A DNA stretch of 64,000 bases, taken from Candidatus Omnitrophota bacterium. Its GTDB lineage: Bacteria; Omnitrophota; Omnitrophia; Omnitrophales; JACQQS01. The translations under genes and the position numbers were made by a program. The DNA is taken from the NCBI GenBank assembly GCA_016206925.1, contig JACQQS010000062.1, positions 9,254-73,253 of the forward strand, written 5' to 3'. The notes under the pieces are model-generated. The model did no database searches, was not told the DNA's origin, and worked only from the letters and a program-made list of their open reading frames with translations. Positions 3,933 to 25,351 of this stretch are shown piece by piece. Position 1 is the first letter of the stretch; the number at the start of each line of letters is the position of its first letter.

Positions 3933-4376
3933 TCACCATTTGCTTGGTATTTCCCCTTTGTAGTCCCCCCAATCCTGATCCAGCTCATCGGTAATGTCCA
4001 CCAGCACTTTCGCCTTGTCCGTTATGTAAACCCAACCACCGTCATTCGGGACAGGATCACTTAGCGGCAGATCATCGTAAGTATTATTTCCCTTTTTATC
4101 ACTGATCAATTCGGCCGGCAGCTCCTCGAGGTACTCTTTTTCAATGCCGACGTCGTTATACGTTTCGGTGACCAGCTCTTCCAGCGATTCGGGATAACGG
4201 CCTTCCTTTGCACGAAACAAAGTGATTCGCGATCGAAGCATATCCAGATTGCTCTTTGTCGCCGCAATGCGCGCTTCCGAATCAAAACCGATGAAATTGG
4301 GTATGACCGCCATGGCGAGAATGGCCAGGATGCTTACGACGATAAGAATTTCTAATAGGGTAAATCCTTTTTTCAT
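3933..4376 (-). CDS. gspG: type II secretion major pseudopilin GspG-like (type IV pilin fold)
   Basis: MKKG|FTLLEILIVVSILAILAMAVIPNF is a canonical GspG/PulG N-terminus; 147 aa. Confidence 0.8.
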   Translation of the reverse strand: MKKGFTLLEILIVVSILAILAMAVIPNFIGFDSEARIAATKSNLDMLRSRITLFRAKEGRYPESLEELVTETYNDVGIEKEYLEELPAELISDKKGNNTYDDLPLSDPVPNDGGWVYITDKAKVLVDITDELDQDWGDYKGEIPSKW

Positions 4377-4440
4377 TTGCCCTCCTATGTCATTGCCTAA
4401 ACCGTAGGCGGGGTACTGCGCGGTCGGCGCGGCGCCCTGG

Positions 4441-4746
4441 CTACGCAGACTGCGGTCTTTTCATCACATAGTAGCCGCCGGTTTGCGTTGTAACCAGCGC
4501 TCCGAGCTCCCAGCCATCGCGGCCAAGCTCATTTAATTCGTTTTCAAATACCGGTAATTTGGCATCGGTTAGGCTTATCACCCGGTACTCCCACGTTACT
4601 TTATCCACTCTTGCTTCGATGGTGCCCGTCCACTTTAACCCGCCGAGAAAAGCGTACGCAGTGGCCGACATAAACACGATCAAAAGTATAGCTGCATGTA
4701 TCTTGTAAAAAAAATTTATTTTCATATTTACCTCAAGCTTCGTCAT
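4441..4746 (-). CDS. small membrane-anchored protein, DUF4177-like C-terminus
   Basis: 101 aa. N-terminal TM (AAILLIVFMSATAYAFLGG) and C-terminal ...LNELGRDGWELGALVTTQTGGYYVMKRP, which resembles the DUF4177 signature. Confidence 0.45.
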   Translation of the reverse strand: MTKLEVNMKINFFYKIHAAILLIVFMSATAYAFLGGLKWTGTIEARVDKVTWEYRVISLTDAKLPVFENELNELGRDGWELGALVTTQTGGYYVMKRPQSA

Positions 4747-4797
4747 CCCCGCGAAAGCGGGAATCCAGGATTTAGATCCCCGCTTTCGCGGGGATGA
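4742..4797. repeat. 56-nt palindromic REP-like element (20-bp perfect inverted arms GTCATCCCCGCGAAAGCGGG / CCCGCTTTCGCGGGGATGAC)
   Basis: Read directly. Lies in the spacer between gspF/pilC-2 and the DUF4177-like gene. Each arm contains a CCCGC-GNRA-GCGGG mini-hairpin. A related copy is at 14425-14482. Confidence 0.75.
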
Positions 4798-4812
4798 CCA
4801 CCATTGTTTCTG

Positions 4813-6030
4813 TCATTTTCTGAAGACCTTTACCAAGTTGAATATCGGCAGCAGTACGGAAAGCGCGATAAATGCCACAACGCCTCCCATCATCAACAGA
4901 AGCACGGGCTCAAGCAGGGATGTCAAATTATCAACGGTCGTGGTCACCTCTATATCGTAGAAGTCCGCGATGTCCGTCAGCATTTGATCGAGTTTTCCGG
5001 AATCTTCGCCCGCGGAAAGCATTTGAATAACCATCGGCGGAAAAAAACCGCTCATAGCCAGCGGTTCCGTTAATTTCTTGCCCTCGGTAATTTGCCCCTG
5101 TACATTTTGAAGCACTCGGACAATGACCAGATTGTCCATGGTCTGCTCCACAATTTTTAAGGCCTGCAGAATGGGCACGCCGCTTCGGATTAGCACGGCC
5201 AGTGAGCGGGTAAGCGACGCAATGATCGCTTTTAGGATCAAATCACCGCCGATCGGGAGTCTGAGAAAAAATAAGCCGATGTAGTAACGGCCGGTTTCTG
5301 TAAACCAGAGCCGGCGGAGGGCAAAACCGGCGGCAAGAAGGGCGATTAAGATGAGCCACCAGAATGTTTGAAGGAAACCGCTAAAGGACAGCAGTATTTT
5401 TGTCGGAAGTGGCAGCGGAACATCCGAGGAAAGAAAAATCTGACTAAATTGCGGGATGATTCGGACGAGAAGGAAGACAACGACGGCAATACCTGCCAAG
5501 AGAAGCACGATCGGGTACGTAAATGCAGAGCGGACTTTTGCGCGAAGCTGCTGTTCACGTGTGCCCAATTCGGATAATCGTGTAAGCGATTCATCAAGAC
5601 CGCCGGTATTTTCCCCCACCTGCACCAGGTTGATGAAAAGGTTTGAGAATATCTTGGGGTATAACGCTAAGGCTTGGGAGAGTGCCCGGCCGGCGCGGAT
5701 TTCATCAGTGATATGCCGGAGAATTTGCCGGAGCTTGTCAATCGGTGTTTGTTCTGCACAGCTTTCAAGCGCCGTCAGAATTGGAATGTTGGCGCCTAGC
5801 ATGGCGCCTAACTGCCGCGTGACCACGAGTACTTCTTGACGCGGAATTCCCCTGATCCGCTGCGTAAACCGATCGAAGGCTTTTTCGATAGGGTGCGGTT
5901 CTGAAATGGAAATGACATTATAACCGAGCCGTTTTAAGTTCTGTGCAAGTACCATCCGCCCATCGGCTTGCACCGTTCCCGCTAATAATGACCCAAATCG
6001 ATCACGTGCCCGATACCGGAATTTCGGCAT
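4813..6030 (-). CDS. type II secretion / type IV pilus inner-membrane platform protein (GspF/PilC family), copy 2
   Basis: 405 aa with two T2SS-F-like repeats and three predicted TM regions. Paralogous to ORF 19350..20567. Confidence 0.85.
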   Translation of the reverse strand: MPKFRYRARDRFGSLLAGTVQADGRMVLAQNLKRLGYNVISISEPHPIEKAFDRFTQRIRGIPRQEVLVVTRQLGAMLGANIPILTALESCAEQTPIDKLRQILRHITDEIRAGRALSQALALYPKIFSNLFINLVQVGENTGGLDESLTRLSELGTREQQLRAKVRSAFTYPIVLLLAGIAVVVFLLVRIIPQFSQIFLSSDVPLPLPTKILLSFSGFLQTFWWLILIALLAAGFALRRLWFTETGRYYIGLFFLRLPIGGDLILKAIIASLTRSLAVLIRSGVPILQALKIVEQTMDNLVIVRVLQNVQGQITEGKKLTEPLAMSGFFPPMVIQMLSAGEDSGKLDQMLTDIADFYDIEVTTTVDNLTSLLEPVLLLMMGGVVAFIALSVLLPIFNLVKVFRK

Positions 6031-8044
6031 GTGCTAATTTCCCGACCTCTTCGGTTGATACTTCAAGTATATCCAGCCGCTCGTGCAAATCTTTTTGGCG
6101 CTTTTCGAGCCGCTTGGCTTCGCTTTCCATTCTTTTTTTGAGCTTTTCCATTTGACGAAGGGCGTTATCGGCATAACCGCTGCCCGGCTGCTCCGTGACA
6201 ATGTAACGGTAGACTTCATAAGCTTGCGGGAGATTATTCAACTTCGATTCGTAAAGTTCGGCTGAGCGGTTGAGAGCGTCATCTGCTAAAGCATCTTTCG
6301 GATGGGCTTCAGCAAACCGATGATAGGAGCTGGCCGCTTCCCGATAGTATTGACGCTGAACGTTACGGAAGCGCCGCGAATCATATTTATGCCTTGCCGC
6401 ATTTTCAAACCATTCTGCCCGTTCGAAATAGTTTTTATCTTGCGCTTCGTGGGGAGTCACCGGTAAGTCGAGCGCGTCTTGAATCCCATCTTTTCTAAAA
6501 GGAGAAATAAGCTGCTCATGTTTAATTTCGGCGCCGTCCTTTTCCTCGAGTTGGCGGGCAAGCGCTTCTTTGTCTTCCGGATTCACTCGATCGGCTGAAT
6601 AAAGAATATGCGGCGTCAGGAAAATCACGAGCTCCTTAGTCTCGCGGCTGTTGGCAAAGTTGCCTAAGATCTGTCCCAAAATGGGGATATGGCTGAAAAG
6701 CGGAAGCGATGAAGCCGTTTCTGAATACTCATCTTTGAGCAGGCCCGCGATGACGATGGTTTGGCGATCCGGAACGCGCACAAAGGTGGAGGCTTCCCGC
6801 GTGGTAATCCGCGGTAAATTGTCGACGAAACTGCTGATCGAGCTGACCTCTGTCGTTATTTCCATGGTAACAAAGCCCGCCCTGTTTATAGTGGGGGTTA
6901 CTTTAAGCGTGATGCCGACATCTACGAAGCGGACGCTTTCTATGGTACCACTTGCCGTTTGCGTCTGCTCACGAATGCCTACTTTTTCACCGATAACGAT
7001 CTTCGCGGCCTGATTATTTAAAACCGCCACGCGCGGGGCGGAAAGCAGATTGGCTTTTGTTTTTTGCATGAGCGAGTCAAACGTAAACGAGTTGGAAGGA
7101 GTAAAAAGGGGCGTTGTGAACGATGACACGATATCGTCACCGCTCAAAGATCCGGAAGGACCGGGCAAATTGTAGTCAAAATTCCACGTATGCGTACCTT
7201 CGGATAGAACAGCGGAGTAATTGATATCAACGTCCGCGCCCAAATTCGCCAGATCTTTTGGATCGATATCAACCAACTTGGCTTCGATGATGACCTGCGG
7301 CGGCGGTATGTCAACTTTATACAGTAAGTCCTTTGCTTTCTCTATCCCGCTAGCGGTGTCGGTGATGATTAACTCGTTCACCTTCTCATTGATTTTCAAG
7401 TCACCGGCCTCGGTCATGACGTTTTTAAATAAATCGCTCACGTCAGAGGCTTCCGAAAACTCCAGCCGCAGCACCTCTGTTTTTAAAGATTGGTCTTCCG
7501 CTACGATGGTAATAATATTTCCTTCCATAATATAGGCGTACTTGTTCAAACCGAGAATCGCCTCAAGCGCTTTCTCCAGCGTGACATCTTTAAGGCTGAC
7601 AGAGACCTTCCCGGTAATTTCCTTGCCGGCAATAATGTTCAGGCCATAGGCTTTAGCTAAGGCGCTTAGCACGTCAGCGATTTCCGCTTCCTTGAAATCC
7701 AACGAGACAAGAATTTTGGAATCCGCCGGCGGTACGGCATTTTTAGGTGTATCTTTGGTCTCGTTGCTCGGCGCGGGTTGTTCGGGCATCAGCTTGCTTT
7801 CAGGTTGTTTTGTTTCTTTTATTTGCTGCTGCTCGGCGGTTTGTTCCGGGCCGGATGCCGGGTCGACAACTTCGGTTTTGGTTTCCTGCTGTTCTTGGGC
7901 AGTTTGCTGCGTTCTAGCGGCAGGTGCTTGATCCGTTCCTTTTGATTCGGCAAACGTAGCGATACGGCTCGAAATGATAATGCCGAGAAAACTAGCCGCT
8001 AGAAGGAATGCTGGTCGTCTATTCATTGACCTGCGTGATTTCAT
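6002..8044 (-). CDS. secretin (GspD/PilQ family) with Q/E/T/P-rich N-terminal low-complexity region and C-terminal TPR-like/coiled-coil extension
   Basis: 680 aa. Signal peptide, ~120-aa low-complexity region, N0/N1-like modules. Secretin core: ...LSAPRVAVLNNQAAKIVIGEKVGIREQTQTASG...VRVPDRQTIVIAGLL.... Confidence 0.85.
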   Translation of the reverse strand: MKSRRSMNRRPAFLLAASFLGIIISSRIATFAESKGTDQAPAARTQQTAQEQQETKTEVVDPASGPEQTAEQQQIKETKQPESKLMPEQPAPSNETKDTPKNAVPPADSKILVSLDFKEAEIADVLSALAKAYGLNIIAGKEITGKVSVSLKDVTLEKALEAILGLNKYAYIMEGNIITIVAEDQSLKTEVLRLEFSEASDVSDLFKNVMTEAGDLKINEKVNELIITDTASGIEKAKDLLYKVDIPPPQVIIEAKLVDIDPKDLANLGADVDINYSAVLSEGTHTWNFDYNLPGPSGSLSGDDIVSSFTTPLFTPSNSFTFDSLMQKTKANLLSAPRVAVLNNQAAKIVIGEKVGIREQTQTASGTIESVRFVDVGITLKVTPTINRAGFVTMEITTEVSSISSFVDNLPRITTREASTFVRVPDRQTIVIAGLLKDEYSETASSLPLFSHIPILGQILGNFANSRETKELVIFLTPHILYSADRVNPEDKEALARQLEEKDGAEIKHEQLISPFRKDGIQDALDLPVTPHEAQDKNYFERAEWFENAARHKYDSRRFRNVQRQYYREAASSYHRFAEAHPKDALADDALNRSAELYESKLNNLPQAYEVYRYIVTEQPGSGYADNALRQMEKLKKRMESEAKRLEKRQKDLHERLDILEVSTEEVGKLAHAEIPVSGT

Positions 8045-16763: not shown

Positions 16764-18140
16764 CTACACCCAACCGTATTTCTTTAATTTATATTGGAGA
16801 TTTTGACGGGTGAGGCCGAGCTGCCTGGCGGTTCTTACACGATTGCCGTTATTGGTTTTTAGCGCTTCCTCGATTATCTTTTTCTCGTAGTCATCGACGG
16901 AACTGCGTAGAGAATATGGATCATGTGCCGCAATCGCCGGTGGCTGTTCTTTTACGTTCATTTCACGATGAAGCGCTTCGTCAACTTCTTTTGTACCGAT
17001 CACCTCGTTTTCGAGCAGTGCGAGGATTCTTTCGATTACATTTTCCAACTCCCTGACGTTCCCAGGCCAATCGTATTCCTTAAGTTTTTCAACCGCGCCG
17101 TCTTGGATCGCGATCTTCTTGCCTAAATTCATTTGCTTTGAGAAGGATGAGATGAAATGGCCGACCAGCTTTGGGATATCATCTTTTCGCTGACGAAGCG
17201 GCGGCAGATGGATGGGAATGACATTCAGCCGGTAAAATAATTCTTGCCGGAATCGCCCTTCCTTTACCGCGAGAAGCAGATCCCGGCTTGTGGCGGCAAT
17301 AATCCGTACATCAACCGGAATATCCTTTAATCCCCCGACCCGTTTGACTACCTTCTCCTGCAAAACACGCAATAGTTTGACCTGTATTGGAAGTGTGATT
17401 TCGGCTGCCTCGTCCATGAAAAAAGTTCCCTGATGCGCAAGCTCCAGAAGGCCGGCTTTCGTGGCAACAGCGCCTGTAAAAGACCCCTTTTCGTGCCCGA
17501 AGAGTTCGCTTTCAAGCAAATTTTCAGGCAGAGCGGCGCAGTTAATTCCCACAAAATTACCTGCCTTCCGCTTGGAATTGTAATGAATAGCCCGCGCGAC
17601 AAGTTCCTTGCCGGTGCCGCTTTCGCCGGTAACAAGGACCGTGCTCGATGTCTTGGCCGATTTCTGGATAAGGTCATAAACCTTAAGCATTTCTTTGCTG
17701 CTGCCAATCAGGTTGCGCACGTTGTACTTTTCCGGCAATGCACTTCCCGTTTTCTTGGCTAGCGGAATAAATCGCGTTTCGCTAAGCGCCCGCTGGATGG
17801 AGAGTTCGAGCGCTTCGAATTTAAATGGCTTGATCACGTAATCGCTGGCGCCGTAGCGGATCGCTTCGACCGCCGAGTCCACGGAGGCATAAGCGGTCAT
17901 GATGATAACGTTTATTTCCGGGTCAAAATTCTTGACTGCTTTGATAACGTCGATTCCGTTTAAATCCGTCATACGCAGGTCAGTGATGACCAGATTTGGG
18001 CGAAAATCAGCAAGGTCGCTAATGGCCGTTTTCGCATCCGTGAAGGCAGCCACTTCATGGCCCTCCTGGGTGAGAAATCGCCCCACTACTTCAAGAATGG
18101 AGGCTTCGTCGTCTATGATCATCAATCGTTTCTTATCCAT
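16764..18140 (-). CDS. pilR: sigma54-dependent response regulator (NtrC/PilR-like: REC + AAA+ sigma54 activator + Fis-type HTH)
   Basis: Receiver with phospho-acceptor D in VITDLRM. Walker A GESGTGKELVARAIH. GSFTGA (GAFTGA-like) loop. C-terminal HTH TARQLGLTRQNLQYKLKKYG. Confidence 0.85.
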   Translation of the reverse strand: MDKKRLMIIDDEASILEVVGRFLTQEGHEVAAFTDAKTAISDLADFRPNLVITDLRMTDLNGIDVIKAVKNFDPEINVIIMTAYASVDSAVEAIRYGASDYVIKPFKFEALELSIQRALSETRFIPLAKKTGSALPEKYNVRNLIGSSKEMLKVYDLIQKSAKTSSTVLVTGESGTGKELVARAIHYNSKRKAGNFVGINCAALPENLLESELFGHEKGSFTGAVATKAGLLELAHQGTFFMDEAAEITLPIQVKLLRVLQEKVVKRVGGLKDIPVDVRIIAATSRDLLLAVKEGRFRQELFYRLNVIPIHLPPLRQRKDDIPKLVGHFISSFSKQMNLGKKIAIQDGAVEKLKEYDWPGNVRELENVIERILALLENEVIGTKEVDEALHREMNVKEQPPAIAAHDPYSLRSSVDDYEKKIIEEALKTNNGNRVRTARQLGLTRQNLQYKLKKYGWV

Positions 18141-18151
18141 GCGGCATTTCC

Positions 18152-19345
18152 CTATACCGACGGCAGAATAACATAAAACGTGCTGCCCTTTCCAATCCGG
18201 CTTCGATACGTAATTTTACCTCCGTGCTGACGGACAATTTTCTGAGCCAAGGCCAGACCTATGCCCGTGCCCCCGTTTCTGCCCGATTGAAAAGGCTGGA
18301 ATAGTTTCTTCTGCTGATCCTTGCTCATGCCCGGTCCCGTATCGCTAAAGGCAATCATAATCAGGTTTCCATCCTGCACAGTGTCAACCGAAAGTTTCCC
18401 GCCCTGTGGCATGGCTTGACAGCTGTTGGTCATGACGTTGATAAAAACCTGTTTCAACTTATCCCGGTCGGCTTCCACTTTATGATTGTTTTTCTGATAA
18501 GATTTTATTAATTCAACACGGCTGTTTATGGAGGGATTTTGACTGAAAGATACAAAAACCTCATCCAGGATCGAAGCGAGCAGCGTTTTTTCAAATTCAT
18601 ACTTTTCGTCACGTGTATAATCAAGAATTTCCTCCAGCAGACGGTTTAAACGTCCCGATTCGTTCTCAACGGTTTGGATGAGTTTTAGATCCGTCTCCGA
18701 AAGCGCGTTTTTGATATGCCGGCTGATCAACTGTACGGCGCCGGTTATGGCCATTAAAGGATTTCTGATTTCATGTGCAAGCTGCGCGGTCATTTCCCCC
18801 AGATACGAAAGCCGCTCCTTTAAGCGGAGCTCCTGCTCCATCTCGGAAACCTGCTCGGCAAAGGCGGAGGAAAGGAAGCCGACGAGCAAGTAAATACTTA
18901 CTTTAACGTAGGAAATGTATCCGGCATAAACAAGATCGGAGGGCTCTCTCCAGTGCTGGAAAATGAGCATTACGGTGAAGAGAATGCTGCCCAGTATGGA
19001 CGTAATAAAACCGTCATTTGGCCGTAAGATTACACCGGCACTAAAGATCGTCAATACCATTAAGGTGGAGAAAACGCTGTCGAAACCTCCGGTAAAGTAC
19101 ATAAGCACGATTTCAAGAATCAAATCCAGCGCTAATTGAACAGCGGCGAGCAGAAACAAATGCTTGCCGATCGTCAGCCAGCCCACGTAAATGGTGCTTA
19201 GCACAAGAACGACGACAATCAGCGCGAAAAGCACAAACCCTTCCTTGATGGCCAGAAGCCCGAAGCAAAGGAAGAGCGTGGCAACCAGCAGACGGAGCAT
19301 GATCAGCAGCTTAATTTTTTTTCGGATATCGGCCGGGCGGATCAT
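18152..19345 (-). CDS. pilS: sensor histidine kinase (PilS-like; polytopic N-terminal membrane domain + HisKA + HATPase_c)
   Basis: About 6 TM helices in the first 180 aa. H-box LGEMTAQLAHEIRNPL. G-boxes GGTGIGLALAQKIV. Confidence 0.8.
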   Translation of the reverse strand: MIRPADIRKKIKLLIMLRLLVATLFLCFGLLAIKEGFVLFALIVVVLVLSTIYVGWLTIGKHLFLLAAVQLALDLILEIVLMYFTGGFDSVFSTLMVLTIFSAGVILRPNDGFITSILGSILFTVMLIFQHWREPSDLVYAGYISYVKVSIYLLVGFLSSAFAEQVSEMEQELRLKERLSYLGEMTAQLAHEIRNPLMAITGAVQLISRHIKNALSETDLKLIQTVENESGRLNRLLEEILDYTRDEKYEFEKTLLASILDEVFVSFSQNPSINSRVELIKSYQKNNHKVEADRDKLKQVFINVMTNSCQAMPQGGKLSVDTVQDGNLIMIAFSDTGPGMSKDQQKKLFQPFQSGRNGGTGIGLALAQKIVRQHGGKITYRSRIGKGSTFYVILPSV

Positions 19346-19349
19346 AGTT

Positions 19350-20567
19350 TTATAAATGCTGGGTAATGGTCAGAATCGGAAGAAACAACGCAATGACAAT
19401 TCCGCCGATCACAACTCCCAAGAAAGCAATAATGACCGGCTCGATAATGGAAGTCAGCCCGTTTACGGCGGCAGATACCTGTTCATCATAAAAATCGGCA
19501 ATCTTATTGAGCATTTGCTCCAGCTCTCCGGTTTCCTCGCCCACCGCAATCATTCGGACCACCATGGGCGGGAAGAGTTTGGTTTTACTTAAAGGTCCGG
19601 CAATGGTTTCACCCTCCTTGATGGACACCTCGACTTCATTAACGATTTTTTCGATGCGCACATTGCCCGCAGACTTTGCCACGATTTCAAGCGCGGTCAA
19701 AATGTGCACGCCGCTTTTGACAAGCGTCGACAAAGTCCGCGCGAACCGGCTGATGGCTACTTTCAAAAACAATGGACCAAATATGATGAGCTTCAATTTC
19801 ACGCCGTCGAACCAGTAACGCCCGGGGTTCGTGGCGATAAACCGTGTAAAAACAATGAAGAATATCACAAATCCAAGCACGATGAACCAGAAGTTGTCGC
19901 GCACGAATTGGCTGAACTCAATGAGAAACAAAGTTAATTTGGGCAAAGGGGCCTGCAATTGCGCAAAAATTTCGGCAAACTTCGGAATGACAAATGTGAG
20001 CATGAGCGTCGTGATCACCATAGCCATTACGCTGACGACGGCCGGGTAAATCATTGCAGACCGGACCTTCTTGCGCAAACTGCTCATGCGCTCATAGTAG
20101 TTTGCAATACGGTCGAGAATTTCATGGAGATTACCGCTTTCTTCACCGGCTCTGGCCAGGTTTACAAAAAGTTTAGAGAAAACTTTAGGAAATTTTGAGA
20201 GCGCTTCGGAAAACTTCTTGCCCCCTTCTATGTCATCACGAATCTTTAAGATAACGTCCTGAAAATTAGCGTTATCCATCTGTTCGCCCAGAATGGTGAG
20301 GGCCTGGAGCAAAGGCACGCCGGCATCCACCATGGTAGCAATTTGACGGGAAAATACGACAAGGTCATCCAGCTTTATTTTTCTGCGTTTGCGCGTGAAT
20401 CCCTTGCCGGCGAAGAGGCTCTTTTTCTCGCGTATGGGCTCAACCGAGATGATGTGGAAACCCTTGTCGCGCAGAAGACCTACCAGCCTCGTGACATCGT
20501 CAGCTTCCTGGACTCCCCGTATATCTTTGCCCTCGTGGTCTTTCACGTGATATATAAATTCGCCCAT
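19350..20567 (-). CDS. pilC: type IV pilus platform protein PilC (GspF family), copy 1
   Basis: 405 aa with two T2SS-F repeats. Immediately downstream of the two PilB-like ATPases. Confidence 0.85.
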   Translation of the reverse strand: MGEFIYHVKDHEGKDIRGVQEADDVTRLVGLLRDKGFHIISVEPIREKKSLFAGKGFTRKRRKIKLDDLVVFSRQIATMVDAGVPLLQALTILGEQMDNANFQDVILKIRDDIEGGKKFSEALSKFPKVFSKLFVNLARAGEESGNLHEILDRIANYYERMSSLRKKVRSAMIYPAVVSVMAMVITTLMLTFVIPKFAEIFAQLQAPLPKLTLFLIEFSQFVRDNFWFIVLGFVIFFIVFTRFIATNPGRYWFDGVKLKLIIFGPLFLKVAISRFARTLSTLVKSGVHILTALEIVAKSAGNVRIEKIVNEVEVSIKEGETIAGPLSKTKLFPPMVVRMIAVGEETGELEQMLNKIADFYDEQVSAAVNGLTSIIEPVIIAFLGVVIGGIVIALFLPILTITQHL

Positions 20568-20598: not shown

Positions 20599-22290
20599 TT
20601 AGATGCTTGCGATACGGAAAACTTCCTCCAATGTGGTATTACCCCTTCGGAATTGTTCGAAAGCGTTGTCAAACAAGAGCTTCATCCCTTTCTTTACGGC
20701 GGTCTGCTGAATCAGATCGCTGGATGTGCGCGATATAATCATTTCCCGCAACTCATCATCAAGATCAAGCGTTTCCAGAACAGCGAGGCGTCCGTAAAAA
20801 CCGCTGTTGCCGCAGCGTTCACAACCTTGTCCGCAATAGGAACGAACGTTCTTCAACATGTCGGGGTTAACTTGCAATCGCTTTAAGACTTCTTTGGCAA
20901 CCGGTCGTTCCTCCTTGCAGTTTTGGCAAATTCTTCTGGCAAGACGTTGCGCGGCAAGAAGATTGACCGAAGATGCGATCAAAAAAGGCTCCACTTTCAT
21001 ATCCAAAAGACGTGTAACGGCTCCCGCAGCGCTATTCGTGTGAAGCGTACTGAATACCAGATGTCCCGTCAGTGCCGCCTTTGCCGCAATGTCGGCGGTT
21101 TCATTATCACGTATTTCGCCGATCAGTATGATGTCCGGACTCTGGCGCAAGAGAGCGCGAAGTCCCTGCGAAAAGGTTAAACCAATCTCGGGAGCGACTT
21201 GAGTTTGCGTAATTCCTTCAACCTGGTATTCCACCGGATCTTCTATCGTCATGATGTTCCTTTCGGGCGTGTTCAGGCGGTTCATGATCGTATAAAGCGT
21301 CGTGGACTTGCCGCTGCCGGTGGGACCCGTGATGATGATCATTCCATAAGGTTTTGAGATGGCTTGTTCAAGCGATTCCTGCGGTCCGGGAAGAAATCCC
21401 AGGTCGGCCATACTCAGTTTAAGCGTACTCTTGTCCAGAATTCTGAGCACTCCTTTTTCGCCGTGCACCATGGGAAGCACCGAGAATCGAAAGTCGATAT
21501 CTTTGCCCTGAGTCTTGATTTTGAAACGTCCGTCTTGGGGTTTTCGATGCTCGGTGATGTCCATTCCGGACATGATCTTGAGCCGCGCGAGAAGCGGTCC
21601 GTGCATATTCTTGGGCGGCGTGTAAGCTTGGTTTAGATGGCCATCAATCCGGTATCGCACTCGAAAGGTTTGCTCGTAAGGCTCAAAGTGAATATCAGAA
21701 GCACGTTTTCGTATGGCTTCAAGCAAAAAGAGATCCACCATTTTTACTACGGGCGCTTCCTCGGACGCCGCTGCGGTTTCTACGGATTCTTTCTCCATTC
21801 CTTCATGAATGACCTGCAATTCTTCATCCGCCGCATCAATGAGATCGTCGATTTCCTCCATGTCGGAGTAGTATTTTTCGAGCGCGTTATGAATATCCCG
21901 CTGGGTAGATATGACCGGCCTTATGGTGCACTGGGTCATGCGCTGAACTTCATCCAACGCCATTACATTGAGCGGGTCGCTCATCGCAAGCGTCAATATT
22001 TTCCCGATGCGCGCAAGCGGAATGATCTCAAACTTCTCGGCAAATTTTCTTGGAATAAGTTGAATAACTTTGGGTTCAACAGAAAACAAGTTGAGATTCA
22101 GATAAGGTAATTTCAGTTCATTGCTTAGAAGCATGGTGAGATCCGATTCGGAGATAAGCCCCTCTTGAACTAAAAGATCAGATAGTTTCCCCTCCCCTTT
22201 TTTGTGCTGATCCATTACCCGTTCAAGGTCACTTAATTTGACCGAACCCTGTTTCGTAAGTATCTCAATGATTCTATCGGTGAGCAGCAT
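20599..22290 (-). CDS. GspE/PilB-family secretion ATPase (with N-terminal T2SS-E N domain and C-terminal tetra-Cys zinc motif), copy 2
   Basis: Walker A GPTGSGKSTTLYTIM. Asp box and His box present. CQNC...CERCGNSGFYGR zinc-binding motif. 563 aa, so the N-terminal domain is present, unlike PilT. Confidence 0.9.
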   Translation of the reverse strand: MLLTDRIIEILTKQGSVKLSDLERVMDQHKKGEGKLSDLLVQEGLISESDLTMLLSNELKLPYLNLNLFSVEPKVIQLIPRKFAEKFEIIPLARIGKILTLAMSDPLNVMALDEVQRMTQCTIRPVISTQRDIHNALEKYYSDMEEIDDLIDAADEELQVIHEGMEKESVETAAASEEAPVVKMVDLFLLEAIRKRASDIHFEPYEQTFRVRYRIDGHLNQAYTPPKNMHGPLLARLKIMSGMDITEHRKPQDGRFKIKTQGKDIDFRFSVLPMVHGEKGVLRILDKSTLKLSMADLGFLPGPQESLEQAISKPYGMIIITGPTGSGKSTTLYTIMNRLNTPERNIMTIEDPVEYQVEGITQTQVAPEIGLTFSQGLRALLRQSPDIILIGEIRDNETADIAAKAALTGHLVFSTLHTNSAAGAVTRLLDMKVEPFLIASSVNLLAAQRLARRICQNCKEERPVAKEVLKRLQVNPDMLKNVRSYCGQGCERCGNSGFYGRLAVLETLDLDDELREMIISRTSSDLIQQTAVKKGMKLLFDNAFEQFRRGNTTLEEVFRIASI

Positions 22291-24008
22291 TAGATCTCCA
22301 ATAGGGTTCCCGTGTCAGGATCCGGCATAGTCACACGGTAAACTTCTTCCACGCTTGTTTCGCCATGTACTACTTTCCGTATCACACTTTCTCGTAATGT
22401 TGTCATGCCTTCCTTGCGTGCGGTAGCTTTAATGACATCGGCGGTTTCTTGTTTCACGATGAGATCATTAATTTTTGGCGTGAGCAGAAGAACTTCGGTA
22501 ATAACCGATCGGCCGGCAAACCCCGTTCGACGGCATAACGCGCACCCGGCAGGTTTATAAAATGTATATTTCCGATCCTTGGGAAGTCGGAAATCGATGA
22601 TCAACTTTTCCGGAGGTGTGTAGGTTTCGCGGCAATGGTGGCAGAGGCGTCTAACAAGCCTTTGCGCGGACACCATCAAAACGGATGAGGTTATGAGAAA
22701 CGGCTCGATTCCCATGTTGGTCATTCGGATAATGGAACTTGCGGCATCATTGGTGTGGAGAGTGCTTAGAACCAGGTGCCCCGTCAATGCCGCTTTAATA
22801 GCAATGTCCAGCGTTTCGACGTCGCGTATTTCGCCGATCATGATGATGTCGGGATCTTGCCTTAGGATTGATCTCAAGGCCGCTGAAAACGTGAGGCCCA
22901 CGTAGTCGTTAGATTGAACTTGATTAACTCCTTCCACTTTGTATTCGACGGGATCCTCAACGGTTGTTATGTTTTTGGTTTCATCGTGCAGGTGCTGCAA
23001 AATGGAATAAAGCGTCGTGGATTTTCCGCTGCCGGTCGGACCGGTAACCAGAATCATGCCGTAAGGCCGCCGCGCGCATTGTTCAATCCGCTCCAACTCT
23101 CTCGGATGAAATCCGAGGCCTTTGAGATCCTGTTGGTGGGTTGAGGTATCCAAAATACGTAGGCAAACTTTTTCTCCAAAGCTGGTTGGGATAATGGAGA
23201 CACGTATGTCAATCATCCGGTCAAGAGCCTTGATCCTAAACCGGCCATCTTGGGGGATGCGGTGTTCCGCAATATTCAGATTGGAAACCACTTTTATGCG
23301 TGAAACAAGGGCTTCGGCCATACTCTTGGGAGGCGCTTTGATATCCTCCAATAATCCGTCAATGCGGCAGCGCACGTGCAGCTTTTTCTCCCAGGGTTCG
23401 ATAAATAAGTCGCTGGCTTTTCTGCGCACGGCTTCGGTCAAAAGAGCGTTCGTAATTTTGATAACGGGTGTTTCAGTGGCCAGCCGGATAAGCTCGGACG
23501 ATGATTTCCCCGAGTCGTTTTGCTTTTCCGTGGCTTCATCAATCAATTCCTGCATGGACTCGTTTCCGATAGAAACCTCGCTGTAACACCGATCAATGGC
23601 CTGCCGAATCACTTTTGGAAGCGCGATAACCGGCGAGACGGTGCTATCCGTTATCGAGCGCAAGTCATCGAGAAGAAGTACATCGGCAGGGTTAATGATG
23701 GCTACCGTGATCGCACCGTTTGCGCGGCTGATCGGAAGAACACCGTGCCGTTGCGCAAATCCCGTAGGAATTAATGACAGGAGATCGGCGGGAACCGAAA
23801 TGCTGGAAACATCCACAATGGGATATCTGAAGAAGTCACTCAAAAATGACAAATAGCTTTCGCTGCTGATCCATTCATGGTCCAGGAGACATTCGGTTAA
23901 GCTTTCGTCCGGTGGACAAACTTTTCGGGCGCGCTCCAGGCGCTCTGCTTTGAGTAGGCCCTGATTTACCATCATCTCAAGCATTTTGTTGGACAAGACT
24001 TCTTTCAT
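22290..24008 (-). CDS. GspE/PilB-family secretion ATPase, copy 1
   Basis: Walker A GPTGSGKSTTLYSIL. CHHCRETY...CALCRRTGFAGR tetra-Cys motif. 572 aa. Its stop overlaps the start of copy 2. Confidence 0.9.
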   Translation of the reverse strand: MKEVLSNKMLEMMVNQGLLKAERLERARKVCPPDESLTECLLDHEWISSESYLSFLSDFFRYPIVDVSSISVPADLLSLIPTGFAQRHGVLPISRANGAITVAIINPADVLLLDDLRSITDSTVSPVIALPKVIRQAIDRCYSEVSIGNESMQELIDEATEKQNDSGKSSSELIRLATETPVIKITNALLTEAVRRKASDLFIEPWEKKLHVRCRIDGLLEDIKAPPKSMAEALVSRIKVVSNLNIAEHRIPQDGRFRIKALDRMIDIRVSIIPTSFGEKVCLRILDTSTHQQDLKGLGFHPRELERIEQCARRPYGMILVTGPTGSGKSTTLYSILQHLHDETKNITTVEDPVEYKVEGVNQVQSNDYVGLTFSAALRSILRQDPDIIMIGEIRDVETLDIAIKAALTGHLVLSTLHTNDAASSIIRMTNMGIEPFLITSSVLMVSAQRLVRRLCHHCRETYTPPEKLIIDFRLPKDRKYTFYKPAGCALCRRTGFAGRSVITEVLLLTPKINDLIVKQETADVIKATARKEGMTTLRESVIRKVVHGETSVEEVYRVTMPDPDTGTLLEI

Positions 24009-24013
24009 GGAAT

Positions 24014-24562
24014 TTACTCAGTAGACGGCGGACTCTGGGTAGGTTTCTCTGTTTTCTTCTCGCGTGCGACGCGAAAACTTATTTTGGATACGTTCACACT
24101 TGCATTGTTGTCTTCAGGAAATTCGAGCTTGTAGTATCGCTTGATGGCTTTTTTTATCTCCGTTACCGTGGCGACAAACGGCTGCACATGACAGCCTGAG
24201 GTCGATTCAATGGTTTTAATCGCTTGCGCGTTGCTCGGATCAGACATGACCACGGTGAGAATGCTTTGAACTCGGTCAATTGGAATGCATAGATATTGAC
24301 GAACGGTATCTATCGGAAGGGCTTTTACCGCTTGCGGGTTTATTTCGAAGTTATCTATGGGAAGATAAGGAAAATTGAATTGAGTGGCGAGCGCTATGAC
24401 AATATCTTCTTCTTTCACAAAACCAAGGCGAATGAGAATTTCGCCGAGCAGCCCGCCCTCCGATTCTTGCGTCTTGAGTGCCTGGTTGAGCCCGCCTTCG
24501 TTTAGGATGCCGTACTCAAGAAGAATTTCCCCCAGTTTCTTATGTCCCGCTTCCTTGGGCAT
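24014..24562 (-). CDS. stand-alone T2SS-E N-terminal domain protein (MshEN-like; candidate c-di-GMP receptor)
   Basis: 182 aa. Two tandem motifs matching the MshEN consensus: KLGEILLEYGILNEGGLNQALKTQ and LLGEILIRLGFVKEEDIVIALATQ. They are followed by a GSPII_E_N-like fold region (PIDTVRQYLCIPI...VVMSDPSN). Confidence 0.7.
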   Translation of the reverse strand: MPKEAGHKKLGEILLEYGILNEGGLNQALKTQESEGGLLGEILIRLGFVKEEDIVIALATQFNFPYLPIDNFEINPQAVKALPIDTVRQYLCIPIDRVQSILTVVMSDPSNAQAIKTIESTSGCHVQPFVATVTEIKKAIKRYYKLEFPEDNNASVNVSKISFRVAREKKTEKPTQSPPSTE

Positions 24563-24785
24563 AGGCCTTATCCTTAAGTGTGGTTATTAAAAAGTTTTAC
24601 GATTGGATAAGAACTTGTTAATCTTAAAAACCTTTCTGCTCAATTAAAGTATACATACCGCCCTTCTCTTTTACAAACGAGCACGTGATTATAGAATTGT
24701 GTAACTTATTGATTCATAGGAGTTTGTGTAGTCACCGGTACGATTCTTCTAGAGAAACCGGGTTTAGAGCTGGAAACTTTTGACG

Positions 24786-25349
24786 TTAAGCTAGAGGAAT
24801 ACGGCTGATCACAGAATAGATAGGGCCGCTTGGCGTCAACACACTTTTAAAGAACGCAAGCTCTTTGATCAAAGTGGGGCCGGTTAGAGGTGGTGAAAAG
24901 TCCGGCTGAAAAATCGACTCGGGAAAACCGGCGGAATGTCTTTCCTTGATTCGGGCAATGGTCAAATGGGGTTTGAATGTTCTACCCTCGACGGGAAACC
25001 CGAACGATCTCAACGCGGCATCGACCGTTCGCTTTAAGTTGTGCAACGCACCACCTTTTTCAACGATCTCACGCCAGATTAGCCTCGGCTGCTTTCGATC
25101 CGGAAAAACGCCCAAATTCCCTAACGATACAAAAATTTGAAGGCGGTTTTGCGCAAACCTCTCTTTCAGCTCTCTTGTAATTTCTTGCGCGGTCATCTCC
25201 GGAATGTCTTCAAAAAAAGCCAGCGTTAGGTGAACTTGCTCTGACCGCACAAAGCTTGCATGGACACCTGACTCTTTAAGCTTTTTAATAGTATCTTCAA
25301 CTGCCTTGCCGAAAGAATTGCTTAAATCCAGTGCCAGAAATGCGCGCAT
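24786..25349 (-). CDS. thpR: RNA 2',3'-cyclic phosphodiesterase / 2'-5' RNA ligase family (ThpR/LigT, 2H phosphoesterase)
   Basis: Two H-x-T-x motifs (HLTLAFF and HLTIARI) about 85 aa apart. The likely start is the internal ATG at 25349 (MRAFLALDL...), not the ORF-track start at 25553. Confidence 0.8.
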   Translation of the reverse strand: MRAFLALDLSNSFGKAVEDTIKKLKESGVHASFVRSEQVHLTLAFFEDIPEMTAQEITRELKERFAQNRLQIFVSLGNLGVFPDRKQPRLIWREIVEKGGALHNLKRTVDAALRSFGFPVEGRTFKPHLTIARIKERHSAGFPESIFQPDFSPPLTGPTLIKELAFFKSVLTPSGPIYSVISRIPLA

Positions 25350-25351
25350 GA

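What the first reader, a model, noticed from the sequence alone, without database searches (positions are those of the whole stretch)
24014..24562. Stand-alone MshEN-like domain with two near-perfect c-di-GMP-binding motifs, immediately upstream of two tandem PilB-type ATPases
Seen in the sequence: the 182-aa protein carries two consecutive 24-residue motifs (KLGEILLEYGILNEGGLNQALKTQ and LLGEILIRLGFVKEEDIVIALATQ). They match the RLGxxLLxxGLIxxxxLxxALxxQ tandem motif established for c-di-GMP binding by MshE N-terminal domains.

The two downstream ATPases (22290-24008 and 20599-22290) each carry their own, more degenerate, N-terminal domain. A free-standing high-consensus MshEN protein heading the operon could therefore act as a dedicated c-di-GMP sensor or adaptor for one or both motors. 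This arrangement is not part of the canonical T4P or T2SS parts list.
Basis: partly seen in the sequence, partly recalled or inferred. Interest (0 to 1): 0.65.

Follow-up and report, generated by a model that had tools for sequence, protein, structure and literature searches.

The report
Stand-alone c-di-GMP sensor for pilus motors

Summary
ORF 24014-24562 (-) encodes a 182-aa protein that is a complete MshEN domain plus a 35-aa disordered tail, with no ATPase.

- **Motif match:** both 24-residue c-di-GMP motifs align without gaps, residue for residue, to V. cholerae MshE. The first residues of the two motifs (Lys9, Leu38) are the pair found in Thermus PilF GSPII-B, a 6 nM binder.
- **Neighbouring motors:** the two downstream PilB-type ATPases look catalytically intact, but both lack the motif glycines needed for binding.
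- **Conservation:** the exact protein is an Omnitrophota MAG "hypothetical protein". In every related locus with enough sequence (17 from genomes, 21 from metagenomes) the order is stand-alone MshEN, PilB, PilB, then PilC where sequence reaches. The sensor motif is intact in 50 of 51 stand-alone copies and in none of 48 first or 38 second ATPases.
- **Origin:** the stand-alone proteins form one clade under purifying selection.
- **Best reading:** a c-di-GMP receptor acting in trans on the tandem pilus motors. Ligand binding and partner contact are inferred, not shown.
- **Novelty:** the domain is known and domain-only proteins are common in databases, but I found no description of this cassette. 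It is a new variant of a known kind, of moderate interest.

The parts
24014..24562 (-). Stand-alone MshEN gene (182 aa): a complete MshEN domain with no ATPase. The identical protein is an NCBI 'hypothetical protein' HY587_06995 from a Candidatus Omnitrophica MAG.
24380..24538 (-). 53-residue c-di-GMP-binding module (MshEN_N, res 9-61). Motif 1 is res 9-32 (24467-24538), the linker is ESEGG, and motif 2 is res 38-61 (24380-24451). Key residues are K9 L10 G11, L25 L29 Q32, L38 L39 G40, I54 L58 Q61.
   Evidence: NF053729 56.6 bits over profile 1-53/53. Gapless alignment to MshE 2-68. 22 of 22 key positions of the extended consensus are met.
24122..24379 (-). MshEN_C / T2SSE_N1 alpha-beta subdomain (res 62-147). 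Asp108 is invariant in the family and sits at the number of the guanine-contacting Asp108 of MshE.
   Evidence: Pfam PF05157 res 62-147. AF2 pLDDT above 90. Invariant D108. The phmmer span 2-117 equals MshE 2-117. The Asp108 contact is described in PMC5013675.
24017..24121 (-). Low-confidence C-terminal tail (res 148-182). It carries a short conserved motif, KISFRVAREK, of the type [KQE]-h-[ST]-F-x-x-A-x-E, present only in the closer relatives.
   Evidence: pLDDT 50-60. Tail motif seen in alignment A1.
24563..24785 (-). AT-rich intergenic region upstream of the stand-alone gene. It has an AAGGA ribosome-binding site and a weak sigma-70-like match (TTGTAA-17-TATACT, 24676-24648). No riboswitch or other Rfam family was found.
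22290..24008 (-). PilB-type ATPase #1 (572 aa). Walker A GPTGSGKS, GEIRD, TGHLV and two CxxC are present. The N-terminal MshEN fold is kept, but both c-di-GMP motifs are degenerate (Leu and Thr in place of the two Gly; Cys and Phe in place of the two Gln).
20599..22290 (-). PilB-type ATPase #2 (563 aa). Its start overlaps the stop of #1 by one base. Catalytic motifs are intact, and both c-di-GMP motifs are degenerate (Ile and Ser in place of Gly; His and Glu in place of Gln).
19350..20567 (-). PilC/GspF platform protein, the fourth gene of the conserved cassette.
16054..19345 (-). PilS-like histidine kinase (18152-19345), PilR-like sigma-54 response regulator (16764-18140) and a pilin with an N-methylation motif (16054-16524). 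This is the downstream part of the cluster in the subgroup that includes the window.
3933..12006 (-). Rest of the pilus machine: ParA/MinD-like ATPase (10978-12006), PilM (9547-10974), PilN (8972-9550), PilO (8041-9009), secretin (6002-8044), a second PilC/GspF (4813-6030) and a pseudopilin (3933-4376).

Best explanation
The gene encodes a free-standing, probably high-affinity c-di-GMP receptor of the MshEN family. It is made together with two tandem PilB-type pilus ATPases and PilC, and it supplies in trans the second-messenger input that both ATPases have lost in cis.

Proposed sequence of events:
1. The protein binds one c-di-GMP between its two 24-residue motifs. Leu10/Leu25/Leu29 and Leu39/Ile54/Leu58 stack on the guanines, the backbone amides at Gly11 and Gly40 bond to the Hoogsteen edges, and Lys9/Leu38 cap the bases, as in PilF GSPII-B.
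2. Ligand binding re-orients the N and C subdomains.
3. The loaded protein docks on the motor and promotes pilus assembly, or decides which paralogue is engaged. The docking site would be the degenerate MshEN domains of PilB#1/PilB#2, or the PilM/PilC platform that N1 domains normally contact.

In effect it behaves like the extra MshEN domains of multi-MshEN ATPases such as PilF, detached as a separate polypeptide.

Shown here: domain identity, motif integrity, fold, synteny, complementary degeneracy, single origin and purifying selection. Inferred: ligand binding, the partner, and the sign of regulation.
For: **Sensor identity**
- NF053729 and PF05157 both score above their curated cut-offs.
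- The alignment to MshE is gapless and in register.
- The AF2 model has pLDDT 85.8, above 90 across most of res 10-140. Its best PDB matches are 5htl (MshE with c-di-GMP, TM 0.79) and 8pdk (PilF GSPII-B with c-di-GMP).
- The K9/L38 pair equals K167/L196 of GSPII-B (KD 6 nM). PMC11731258 states that a hydrophobic first residue predicts very high affinity.

**Loss in cis**
- Neither window ATPase has Gly at motif position 3.
- In MshE, G11L abolishes binding, G40I weakens it 72-fold, and Q32A/Q61A weaken it about 10-fold (PMC5013675 supplement).

**Conservation of the split**
- Both Gly are present in stand-alone copies: 15/15, 3/3, 32/33.
- Both Gly in PilB#1: 0/15, 0/3, 0/30. In PilB#2: 0/14, 0/3, 0/21 (same calls).
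- Control: all 65 full-length PilBs of other phyla that are the closest relatives keep both Gly. Tandem PilBs in other phyla keep the motif in cis in at least the first ATPase.

**Synteny and coupling**
- MshEN then PilB then PilB occurs in 17/17 genome loci and 21/21 metagenome loci with enough sequence, with PilC next wherever sequence reaches it.
- Gene spacing runs from -11 to +19 nt in 16 of 17 cases, in varying frames, which fits co-translation and excludes a sequencing frameshift.

**Selection**
- The motif region is the best-conserved part of the stand-alone protein (52% mean pairwise identity). It is the worst-conserved part of the ATPases (29-30%, against 58-60% for their cores).
- dN/dS is 0.07-0.23.
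- The stand-alone proteins form one clade in 100 of 100 bootstrap replicates.

**Fusion evidence**
- Relatives fused as (MshEN)2-4-ATPase exist (PMC5013675 Suppl. Table 4).
- One relative is fused to a PilZ domain with intact RxxxR/NxSxxG motifs.

**c-di-GMP parts in the phylum**
- PilZ and GGDEF domains are reported in Omnitrophota (bioRxiv 10.1101/2023.11.21.568195).
- PilZ genes lie near a relative in L082.
Against: - There is no biochemical measurement, and no structure with ligand.
- No GGDEF, EAL or HD-GYP gene was found among the window ORFs annotated.
- The GGDEF-family gene that precedes many sister cassettes has a degenerate active site in all 29 copies examined, so it is probably not a cyclase.
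- Simple 'outsourcing' is not universal. In L084 an intact stand-alone copy coexists with a single PilB whose motif is also intact.
- Relatives P0057/L082 and L161 have lost the motif yet stay next to PilC. The family therefore has some ligand-independent role.
- PilBs with degenerate MshEN domains exist elsewhere without any stand-alone partner, for example the non-binders listed in PMC5013675.
- The grouping of stand-alone proteins with intact PilB N-domains in the NJ tree (82%) could partly reflect long-branch effects of the fast-evolving ATPase N-domains.
- A physical interaction with PilB#1, PilB#2 or PilM was not testable with these tools.
Confidence: 0.55

Rival explanations
1. Decoy or competitor. 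The free MshEN/N1 domain mimics the N-terminal docking domain of the PilBs and occupies their site on the PilM/PilC platform. It would act as a c-di-GMP-gated brake, or as a selector between the two motors, rather than as an activating subunit.
For: - The C-terminal subdomain is a T2SSE_N1 fold. Weak Foldseek matches (E 0.4-1.4) reach the GspE-N1:GspL complexes 4pht and 2bh1.
- The N1 part is well conserved (47%).
- Motif-less relatives stay next to PilC.
- In L084 the gene lies between PilM/N-like genes and the pseudopilins.
Against: - In the studied systems c-di-GMP binding to MshE/PilF-type domains promotes pilus functions (PMC5013675; PMC11731258).
- Tight co-translation with the ATPases suggests stoichiometric partnership rather than a regulated inhibitor.
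- Nothing here distinguishes the sign of regulation.
Confidence: 0.2
2. Ligand-independent structural subunit. The protein is simply an extra N1-type assembly or adaptor piece of a two-ATPase motor, and the motif conservation reflects folding of the four-helix subdomain rather than nucleotide binding.
For: - Some relatives have lost the motifs yet are retained in pilus clusters (P0057/L082, L161).
- No demonstrably active cyclase lies nearby.
Against: - The ATPases keep the same fold with degenerate motifs, so the fold does not require these residues.
- Residues that contact the ligand (both Gly, both Gln, the Leu triads, Asp108) are precisely the invariant or nearly invariant ones in the family.
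- 50 of 51 stand-alone copies keep both Gly, against 0 of 86 ATPase copies.
Confidence: 0.1
3. Receptor for c-di-GMP (or 3'3'-cGAMP) whose target lies outside the adjacent ATPases. Candidates are the degenerate-GGDEF membrane protein, PilT, PilS/PilR, or a role as a general nucleotide buffer.
For: - MshEN also binds cGAMP (PMC5013675 section heading).
- A degenerate HAMP-GGDEF gene and/or PilT directly precede most sister cassettes.
- P0053 (L085) lies apart from any PilB pair.
Against: - The only invariant neighbours are the two PilBs, followed by PilC wherever sequence extends that far.
- The upstream genes differ between subgroups. The window has ThpR/CinA/PgpA/PgsA and no GGDEF or PilT.
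Confidence: 0.1
4. Gene remnant or assembly artefact. The ORF is the leftover 5' end of a third, truncated pilB, or a frameshifted N-terminus of the first ATPase.
For: - A truncated, transcribed pilB fragment of this kind exists in Paenibacillus thiaminolyticus B-4156 (PMC9765702).
- The ORF ends 5 nt before the next ATG.
Against: - The first ATPase has its own complete MshEN domain and start codon.
- About 50 independent loci keep a 145-210-codon ORF with different spacings and frames.
- dN/dS is 0.07-0.23, and the family is monophyletic.
- 64 database homologues have the same length class.
Confidence: 0.02

Closest known systems
MshEN domain of V. cholerae MshE (PDB 5htl; Wang et al. 2016, PMC5013675)
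   Same: - Same two-subdomain fold (Foldseek TM 0.79).
- Same tandem 24-residue motifs with a 5-residue linker, aligned without gaps at identical residue numbers.
- Gly11/Gly40, Leu10/25/29, Leu39/58, Gln32/61 and Asp108 are all present.
   Different: - It is not attached to a T2SSE ATPase. It is a separate 182-aa polypeptide with a 35-aa tail.
- Arg9 is Lys, Arg38 is Leu and Leu54 is Ile.
- Overall identity is only about 31%.
GSPII-B domain of Thermus thermophilus PilF (PDB 8pdk; PMC11731258)
   Same: - Same K/L pair at the first positions of the two motifs, and Glu at motif position 4 (KLGE...). The paper links the K/L pair to a 6 nM KD and arginine-free recognition.
- Structural match at the same level as to MshE.
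- It is an 'extra' MshEN domain beyond the one next to the ATPase, as the stand-alone protein would be if it works with PilB#1.
   Different: - GSPII-B is covalently part of a 3xMshEN-ATPase polypeptide and lacks one residue in motif 2.
- Here the extra domain is a separate gene product, and the ATPase-proximal domains are degenerate.
FimX-PilZ-PilB regulatory complex of Xanthomonas citri (PDB 7lkm/7lkn/7lko)
   Same: - Works like the proposal: a PilB whose own N-terminal MshEN-type domain is not the c-di-GMP sensor receives the signal through separate proteins that dock on that N-terminal domain.
- The PilB N-domain of these entries is a structural match to the model. The role of FimX and PilZ is described in PMC12943098.
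   Different: - There the sensor is a degenerate EAL domain (FimX) and the adaptor is a PilZ-fold protein.
- Here sensor and adaptor would be one MshEN paralogue.
- There is no sequence relationship between the trans-acting parts.
P. aeruginosa PA3740 (MshEN_N plus a divergent T2SSE_N1, no ATPase; PMC5013675 Suppl. Table 4)
   Same: It is a precedent for an MshEN protein without an ATPase domain, listed as a c-di-GMP-binding, motility-related protein.
   Different: - PA3740 has a highly divergent C-terminal subdomain and is found in beta- and gamma-proteobacteria.
- It was not compared directly with the window protein here, and its gene neighbourhood was not examined.
Multi-MshEN ATPases, (MshEN)2-4-T2SSE (Clostridia, Deinococcus-Thermus, Nitrospirae; PMC5013675 Suppl. 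Table 4)
   Same: Several MshEN domains serve one motor. Such proteins are among the best library matches to the window protein, for example P0065, P0066 and P0078, which have 2-4 motif pairs before a Walker A.
   Different: - There all domains are in one chain.
- Here the intact sensor is split off, precedes two separate ATPases, and is the only copy with a functional-looking site.

Membership tests
MshEN domain (c-di-GMP receptor; Pfam PF05157 + NCBIfam NF053729) | Profile matches above the curated cut-offs for both the 53-residue binding module and the C-terminal subdomain | tested here: met
   NF053729 scores 56.6 bits against a cut-off of 38, covering profile 1-53/53. PF05157 scores 62.2 bits against 23.1.
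MshEN domain (c-di-GMP receptor; Pfam PF05157 + NCBIfam NF053729) | Two tandem 24-residue motifs (R/K/L)LGxx(L/V/I)(L/V/I)xxG(L/V/I)(L/V/I)xxxxLxxxLxxQ separated by 5 residues, in the MshE register | tested here: met
   Gapless alignment 2-68 to MshE 2-68. 22 of 22 scored positions are met, allowing I/V for L at position 17 (Ile54). The extended consensus is from PMC11731258.
MshEN domain (c-di-GMP receptor; Pfam PF05157 + NCBIfam NF053729) | Residues shown by mutagenesis to matter for binding: Gly11, Gly40, Leu10/29/39/58, Gln32/61 | tested here: met
   All are present in the window protein. G11, G40, L29, Q32, L58 and Q61 are invariant or nearly invariant in the family. Mutant data are from the PMC5013675 supplement.
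MshEN domain (c-di-GMP receptor; Pfam PF05157 + NCBIfam NF053729) | Fold: four-helix N-subdomain plus alpha/beta T2SSE_N1 C-subdomain | tested here: met
   The AF2 model has pLDDT 85.8, with helices at 10-16, 22-35, 39-45 and 51-62 followed by an alpha/beta unit. Top Foldseek hits are 5htl and 8pdk at probability 1.00 and TM 0.78-0.80.
MshEN domain (c-di-GMP receptor; Pfam PF05157 + NCBIfam NF053729) | Measured binding of c-di-GMP (KD from nM to low uM) | not testable with these tools
   This needs ITC, DRaCALA or DSF on recombinant protein.
PilB/GspE/MshE secretion ATPases (Pfam PF00437 T2SSE; TIGR02538) | T2SSE ATPase domain with Walker A/B, Asp and His boxes | tested here: not met
   No PF00437 match. 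TIGR02538 matches only profile positions 1-147 of 564, at 68.9 bits against a cut-off of 675. The protein ends at residue 182. The two neighbouring genes do meet this feature.
Omnitrophota 'stand-alone MshEN - PilB - PilB - PilC' cassette (defined here) | A short (about 145-210 aa) MshEN-only gene directly upstream of, and on the same strand as, two tandem full-length PilB-type genes, then PilC | tested here: met
   The window plus 16 genome-derived loci and 21 metagenome loci with enough sequence show the MshEN-PilB-PilB order; PilC follows wherever sequence reaches it.
Omnitrophota 'stand-alone MshEN - PilB - PilB - PilC' cassette (defined here) | Intact sensor motif only in the stand-alone copy, with both ATPase N-domains degenerate | tested here: met
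   The window shows this pattern. Family-wide, both Gly are present in 50/51 stand-alone copies, 0/48 PilB#1 and 0/38 PilB#2.
PilZ-type c-di-GMP adaptors | PilZ beta-barrel with RxxxR and (D/N)xSxxG motifs | tested here: not met
   There is no PF07238 match in the window protein. Only the relative P0052 carries a fused PilZ domain.

The most novel reading that the evidence does not exclude
The stand-alone MshEN protein is an exchangeable, c-di-GMP-loaded subunit. It decides which of the two catalytically competent PilB paralogues engages the pilus platform, or whether they form a mixed hexamer. That would make it a second-messenger-controlled motor switch, for instance between pilus extension for attachment or predation and a secretion-like mode that uses the second PilC and the pseudopilins in the same cluster. 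It would be the first case of MshEN acting as a diffusible adaptor rather than as a cis regulatory domain, and its K/L-type site would respond at nanomolar c-di-GMP.
Probability: 0.2. Interest if true: 0.75.

Novelty: new variant of a known kind. Interest (0 to 1): 0.5.

Why it matters
MshEN is one of only three widespread c-di-GMP receptor domains, and every characterised case acts in cis on the protein it is fused to. Here the sensor is a separate polypeptide and both motors have lost their own site, across a whole lineage. That would show MshEN can work as a trans-acting adaptor, as PilZ proteins do.

It also offers a clean system for asking how c-di-GMP binding at an N-terminal domain is transmitted to a PilB hexamer, a question still open for MshE and PilF, because the sensor and the motor can be mixed and titrated separately. 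It would further give a first handle on pilus regulation in Omnitrophota, an uncultivated phylum of very small, possibly predatory or host-dependent cells.

If binding fails, the family is still a conserved, unannotated component of a two-ATPase pilus machine.

Tried and rejected
- **Riboswitch or other RNA upstream.** Rfam found nothing at gathering thresholds over the whole window, and nothing at E<=1 over 24450-24900.
- **Sigma-54 promoter.** A TGGCAC-N5-TTGCW search gave only chance-level matches, none near the operon.
- **Promoter and terminator scans.** Counts were at or below shuffle expectation. Only a weak sigma-70-like site lies upstream.
- **tRNAs.** None in the window.
- **First locus search.** The 33-sequence alignment was too divergent, so it was repeated with 14 closer sequences.
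- **Active cyclase in the cluster.** HAMP-(GAF)-GGDEF genes do precede many sister cassettes. Their GG[DE]EF motif is degenerate in all 29 copies and there is no RxxD site, so I do not count them as evidence that c-di-GMP is made locally.
- **Second MshEN_N in the cluster.** I checked whether the ParA/AAA_31 protein carries one, as in EpsG. Its N-terminus is Pro/Ala/Thr-rich and has no motif.
- **Giant ORFs as GGDEF carriers.** No such Pfam hit.
- **Truncated or frameshifted pilB.** Rejected on conservation, spacing and dN/dS.
- **Tree building.** The first attempt timed out and the second produced NaN distances. The third run is the one reported.
- **Literature.** Searches for a described stand-alone MshEN next to pilB found none in the searchable library. 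This is not proof of absence.
- **Complex prediction.** A structure prediction of the complex with the ATPases could not be run with the available tool.
Full report
**1. What is in the sequence**

ORF 24014..24562 on the minus strand is a 182-codon ATG ORF. It translates to MPKEAGHKKLGEILLEYGILNEGGLNQALKTQESEGGLLGEILIRLGFVKEEDIVIALATQFNFPYLP.... The plus-strand frame is full of stops.

NCBIfam NF053729 ('cyclic di-GMP-binding domain, MshE-related') matches residues 9-61 over its whole 53-position profile at 56.6 bits (cut-off 38). Pfam PF05157 (MshEN) matches residues 62-147 at 62.2 bits (cut-off 23.1). There is no T2SSE ATPase match.

The gene follows a 223-nt AT-rich spacer and has an AAGGA ribosome-binding site. 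Its TAA stop is 5 nt from the ATG of the next gene.

**2. Register and fold**

The phmmer alignment against PDB sequences places query residues 2-68 on V. cholerae MshE residues 2-68 without a gap. Residue numbers therefore coincide. The correspondences are K9/R9, L10, G11, L25, L29, Q32, L38/R38, L39, G40, I54/L54, L58 and Q61. The longer match spans 2-117 in both proteins.

An AlphaFold2 model built on 33 family members has mean pLDDT 85.8, above 90 across most of residues 10-140, with a low-confidence tail after about residue 146. Its best Foldseek matches in the PDB are:
- MshE with c-di-GMP (5htl, target TM 0.79);
- c-di-GMP-bound PilF GSPII-B (8pdk and its mutants);
- other PilF domains;
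- the X. citri PilB N-domain from the PilB-PilZ complex;
- XpsE-N.

**3. The two departures from the 2016 consensus point to tight binding**

Wang et al. defined the motif as RLGxx... (PMC5013675). The window protein has Lys at the start of motif 1 and Leu at the start of motif 2. This is the pair (K167, L196) of Thermus thermophilus PilF GSPII-B.

[quoted passage not shown] Restoring Arg there weakens binding 25-fold (K167R) and 4-fold (L196R). The authors extend the consensus to (R/K/L)LG... and propose that a hydrophobic first residue predicts very high affinity (PMC11731258).

Leu at the start of motif 2 marks the stand-alone family: 31 of 33 metagenome copies have it. The 65 closest full-length PilBs have Arg or Lys there.

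**4. The neighbours**

The two following genes (22290-24008, 572 aa; 20599-22290, 563 aa) are MshEN+T2SSE ATPases. They sit just below the PilB and GspE equivalog cut-offs. Both have Walker A GPTGSGKS, GEIRD, TGHLV and two CxxC pairs, so both look catalytically competent.

Their N-terminal motifs are degenerate. ATPase #1 reads KMLEMMVNQGLLKAERLERARKVC / SLTECLLDHEWISSESYLSFLSDF. ATPase #2 reads RIIEILTKQGSVKLSDLERVMDQH / KLSDLLVQEGLISESDLTMLLSNE. Neither has Gly at motif position 3 of either motif. In MshE, G11L abolishes binding, G40I weakens it 72-fold, and Q32A/Q61A weaken it about 10-fold (PMC5013675 supplement).

Downstream come the remaining pilus genes:
- PilC, a PilS-like kinase, a PilR-like sigma-54 regulator and a pilin;
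- two PMT_2-like glycosyltransferases and a ParA-like ATPase;
- PilM, PilN, PilO and a secretin;
- a second PilC/GspF and pseudopilins.

Upstream are housekeeping genes: ThpR/LigT, CinA/PncC, PgpA, PgsA, a MiaB-like radical SAM enzyme, FtsK, PNPase and others.

**5. Origin and family**

The identical protein is recorded at NCBI as 'hypothetical protein HY587_06995' of a Candidatus Omnitrophica MAG. 64 homologues of 100-279 aa were found, almost all unnamed or 'hypothetical', and those with names come from Omnitrophota MAGs.

In the family alignment G11, L14, L43 and P65 are invariant. A28, L29, Q32, G37, G40 and Q61 are nearly invariant. Among the 14 closest members D108 is also invariant; it carries the number of the guanine-contacting Asp108 of MshE.

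An exhaustive profile-free search of 1.84 billion cluster representatives gave 19,570 hits at E<=1e-3. Of the best 150, 46 are 220 aa or shorter without an ATPase motif. The rest include two-MshEN proteins and (MshEN)n-ATPases. MshEN-only proteins are therefore common in databases, although some short ones may be fragments.

**6. Synteny**

A scan of one genome per species returned 80 loci. Fourteen hold a short stop-to-stop ORF (155-209 codons), all in Omnitrophota-type MAGs. The other 66 are N-termini of full-length PilBs of Acidobacteriota, Methylomirabilota, Nitrospirota and other phyla.

In all 13 short-ORF loci with enough sequence the order is stand-alone MshEN, PilB-type #1, PilB-type #2, PilC, on one strand. 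The fourteenth (L006) ends inside the first ATPase. Three more distant family members looked up by exact sequence show the same cassette.

A metagenome scan added 33 stand-alone loci. All 21 with at least 3.9 kb downstream carry two tandem ATPases. Some overlap between the genome and metagenome sets is possible.

Spacing between the stand-alone gene and ATPase #1 ranges from an 11-nt overlap to 19 nt in 16 of 17 genome-derived loci, and is 73 nt in L081. The frames vary. This fits translational coupling and excludes a frameshift artefact.

Two subgroups exist:
- The window's subgroup has PgsA-PgpA-x-CinA-ThpR upstream and PilS-PilR downstream.
- The other subgroup has a PilT and/or a HAMP-(GAF)-GGDEF-family gene directly upstream.

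Other arrangements also occur:
- PilB-PilC-PilM-x-MshEN-pseudopilins (L084);
- a motif-less copy next to PilC, with PilZ genes nearby (L082);
- one copy isolated near a Tad-like locus (L085).

**7. Complementary degeneracy**

I scored 11 key positions per motif. The results for the stand-alone copies and the two ATPases were as follows.

| Copy | Score out of 22 | Both Gly present |
|---|---|---|
| Stand-alone | 17-22 | 15/15, 3/3, 32/33 |
| PilB#1 | 10-18 | 0/15, 0/3, 0/30 |
| PilB#2 | 11-18 | 0/14, 0/3, 0/21 |

The controls behaved differently. All 65 full-length PilBs of other phyla have both Gly, and 64 have both Gln. Where those phyla have tandem PilBs without a stand-alone gene, both ATPases (L023, L024, L064) or the first (L079) keep the motif in cis.

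Across the same 14 genomes, mean pairwise identity was as follows.

| Region | Stand-alone | PilB#1 | PilB#2 |
|---|---|---|---|
| Motif (N) subdomain | 52% | 29% | 30% |
| N1 (C) subdomain | 47% | 37% | 41% |
| ATPase core | none | 58% | 60% |

dN/dS for the stand-alone gene is 0.07-0.23, with dS near saturation.

In a neighbour-joining tree of MshEN domains the stand-alone proteins form one clade in 100 of 100 bootstrap replicates. They group with intact PilB N-domains of other phyla, against the ATPase N-domains of the cassettes, in 82 of 100. Long-branch effects may contribute to that grouping.

**8. Mechanism**

The best-supported reading is a trans-acting c-di-GMP receptor dedicated to the tandem motors.
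- Shown: domain identity, ligand-site integrity, fold, operon position and tight coupling, strict synteny, single origin, purifying selection focused on the binding module, and loss of the site in both ATPases.
- Inferred: that it binds c-di-GMP (I estimate about 0.8), that its partner is the PilB pair or their platform (about 0.6), and that binding promotes pilus function, by analogy with MshE and PilF (PMC5013675; PMC11731258).

Fusion evidence supports joint function. (MshEN)2-4-ATPases are a known architecture (PMC5013675 Suppl. Table 4) and are among the best matches. One relative is fused to a PilZ domain with intact RxxxR and NxSxxG motifs.

The nearest functional analogue is the X. citri FimX-PilZ-PilB system, in which separate proteins bring the c-di-GMP signal to PilB by docking on its N-terminal domain.

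The rivals are listed in the report with the tests that would separate them: a decoy competing for the PilM/PilC docking site, a ligand-independent structural subunit, a receptor with another target, and a gene remnant.

**9. What weakens the case**

- Nothing was measured.
- No c-di-GMP turnover gene was seen in the annotated part of the window.
- The GGDEF-family neighbour of sister cassettes has a degenerate active site in all 29 copies (SDHQF, ARDEF, GDNEF, GGSEF, GGDSF and others) and no RxxD site. It is probably not a cyclase.
- An intact stand-alone copy coexists with an intact single PilB in L084.
- A few relatives have lost the motif but persist next to PilC.
- On the other side, PilZ and GGDEF domains are reported in Omnitrophota (bioRxiv 10.1101/2023.11.21.568195).

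**10. Novelty and verdict**

The domain, its ligand mode and multi-domain ATPase architectures are known. Wang et al. list MshEN with many partners, and PA3740 is a precedent for an ATPase-less MshEN protein.

I found no description of a complete stand-alone MshEN heading a tandem-PilB operon, nor of the sensor-in-trans, degenerate-in-cis pattern, in the searchable literature. Database names are 'hypothetical protein' or a mistaken 'PilB'.

I class it as a new variant of a known kind. Interest is 0.5: a specialist would find the lineage-wide split moderately surprising, and it makes the question of how MshEN signals to a PilB hexamer directly testable with separable parts.

Noticed in passing
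L086:3524-4933, L087:3442-4845; also L002, L005, L006, L012, L013, L017 and about 21 metagenome loci (L088-L140). Absent from the window.: A ~470-aa membrane protein (HAMP, sometimes GAF, then a GGDEF-family domain) lies directly upstream of the stand-alone-MshEN/PilB/PilB cassette, with or without a PilT between them. Its GG[DE]EF motif is degenerate in all 29 copies checked (SDHQF, ARDEF, GDNEF, GGSEF, GGDSF and others) and there is no RxxD I-site. It may be a receptor or scaffold rather than a cyclase.
   Followed up: partly
window 39917-47989 (-) and 52344-63935 (-): Two very long ORFs (2690 and 3863 aa, TTG starts) have almost no Pfam matches: only a sub-threshold UDPG_MGDP_dh_C hit and a DUF218 hit. 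They recall the giant genes reported in Omnitrophota.
   Followed up: partly
window 24017-24121 (-), residues 148-182 of the stand-alone protein: The otherwise variable, low-pLDDT tail contains a short conserved motif of the type [KQE]-h-[ST]-F-x-x-A-x-E (KISFRVAREK in the window). It is shared by the closer relatives (subgroup with PilS/PilR downstream) and is missing in the shorter subgroup. It may be a docking peptide.
   Followed up: no
P0052 (279 aa, 1.7-kb Logan contig): A family member is fused at its C-terminus to a PilZ domain with intact RxxxR (RRKSVR) and (D/N)xSxxG (NLSLHG) motifs. That puts two different c-di-GMP-binding modules in one small protein.
   Followed up: partly
window 19350-20567 (-) and 4813-6030 (-): The cluster has two PilC/GspF platform paralogues as well as two PilB-type ATPases. 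The second PilC sits after the secretin and before pseudopilin-like genes. This suggests two motor/platform pairs, or a hybrid pilus/secretion machine.
   Followed up: no
window 14360-15985 (+) and 12464-14329 (-): Two large membrane proteins with PMT_2 (GT-C glycosyltransferase) matches lie next to the pilin gene 16054-16524. They are possibly involved in pilin glycosylation.
   Followed up: no
window 10978-12006 (-): A ParA/MinD-type AAA_31 ATPase lies immediately upstream of pilM and has an 80-residue Pro/Ala/Thr-rich N-terminus. It was checked for an MshEN_N motif (as in EpsG) and has none.
   Followed up: yes
L082/L083:7001-7597 (P0057) and L161: These stand-alone MshEN relatives have lost the c-di-GMP motifs. 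P0057 also carries an insert that includes a CxxC pair. Both remain next to PilC. In L082, STAS-PilZ and PilZ genes lie a few kb upstream.
   Followed up: partly
L023, L024, L064, L079 (Thermoanaerobaculia, Nitrospirota and an unclassified-bacterium MAG): Tandem full-length PilB genes also occur outside Omnitrophota without a stand-alone MshEN. There both ATPases, or the first, keep an intact c-di-GMP motif.
   Followed up: partly
window 24786-25553 (-): The listed 255-codon TTG ORF for the RNA 2',3'-cyclic phosphodiesterase (ThpR/LigT) is probably over-extended. The family match starts at residue 69, and the upstream part overlaps the CinA gene (25352-25843).
   Followed up: no
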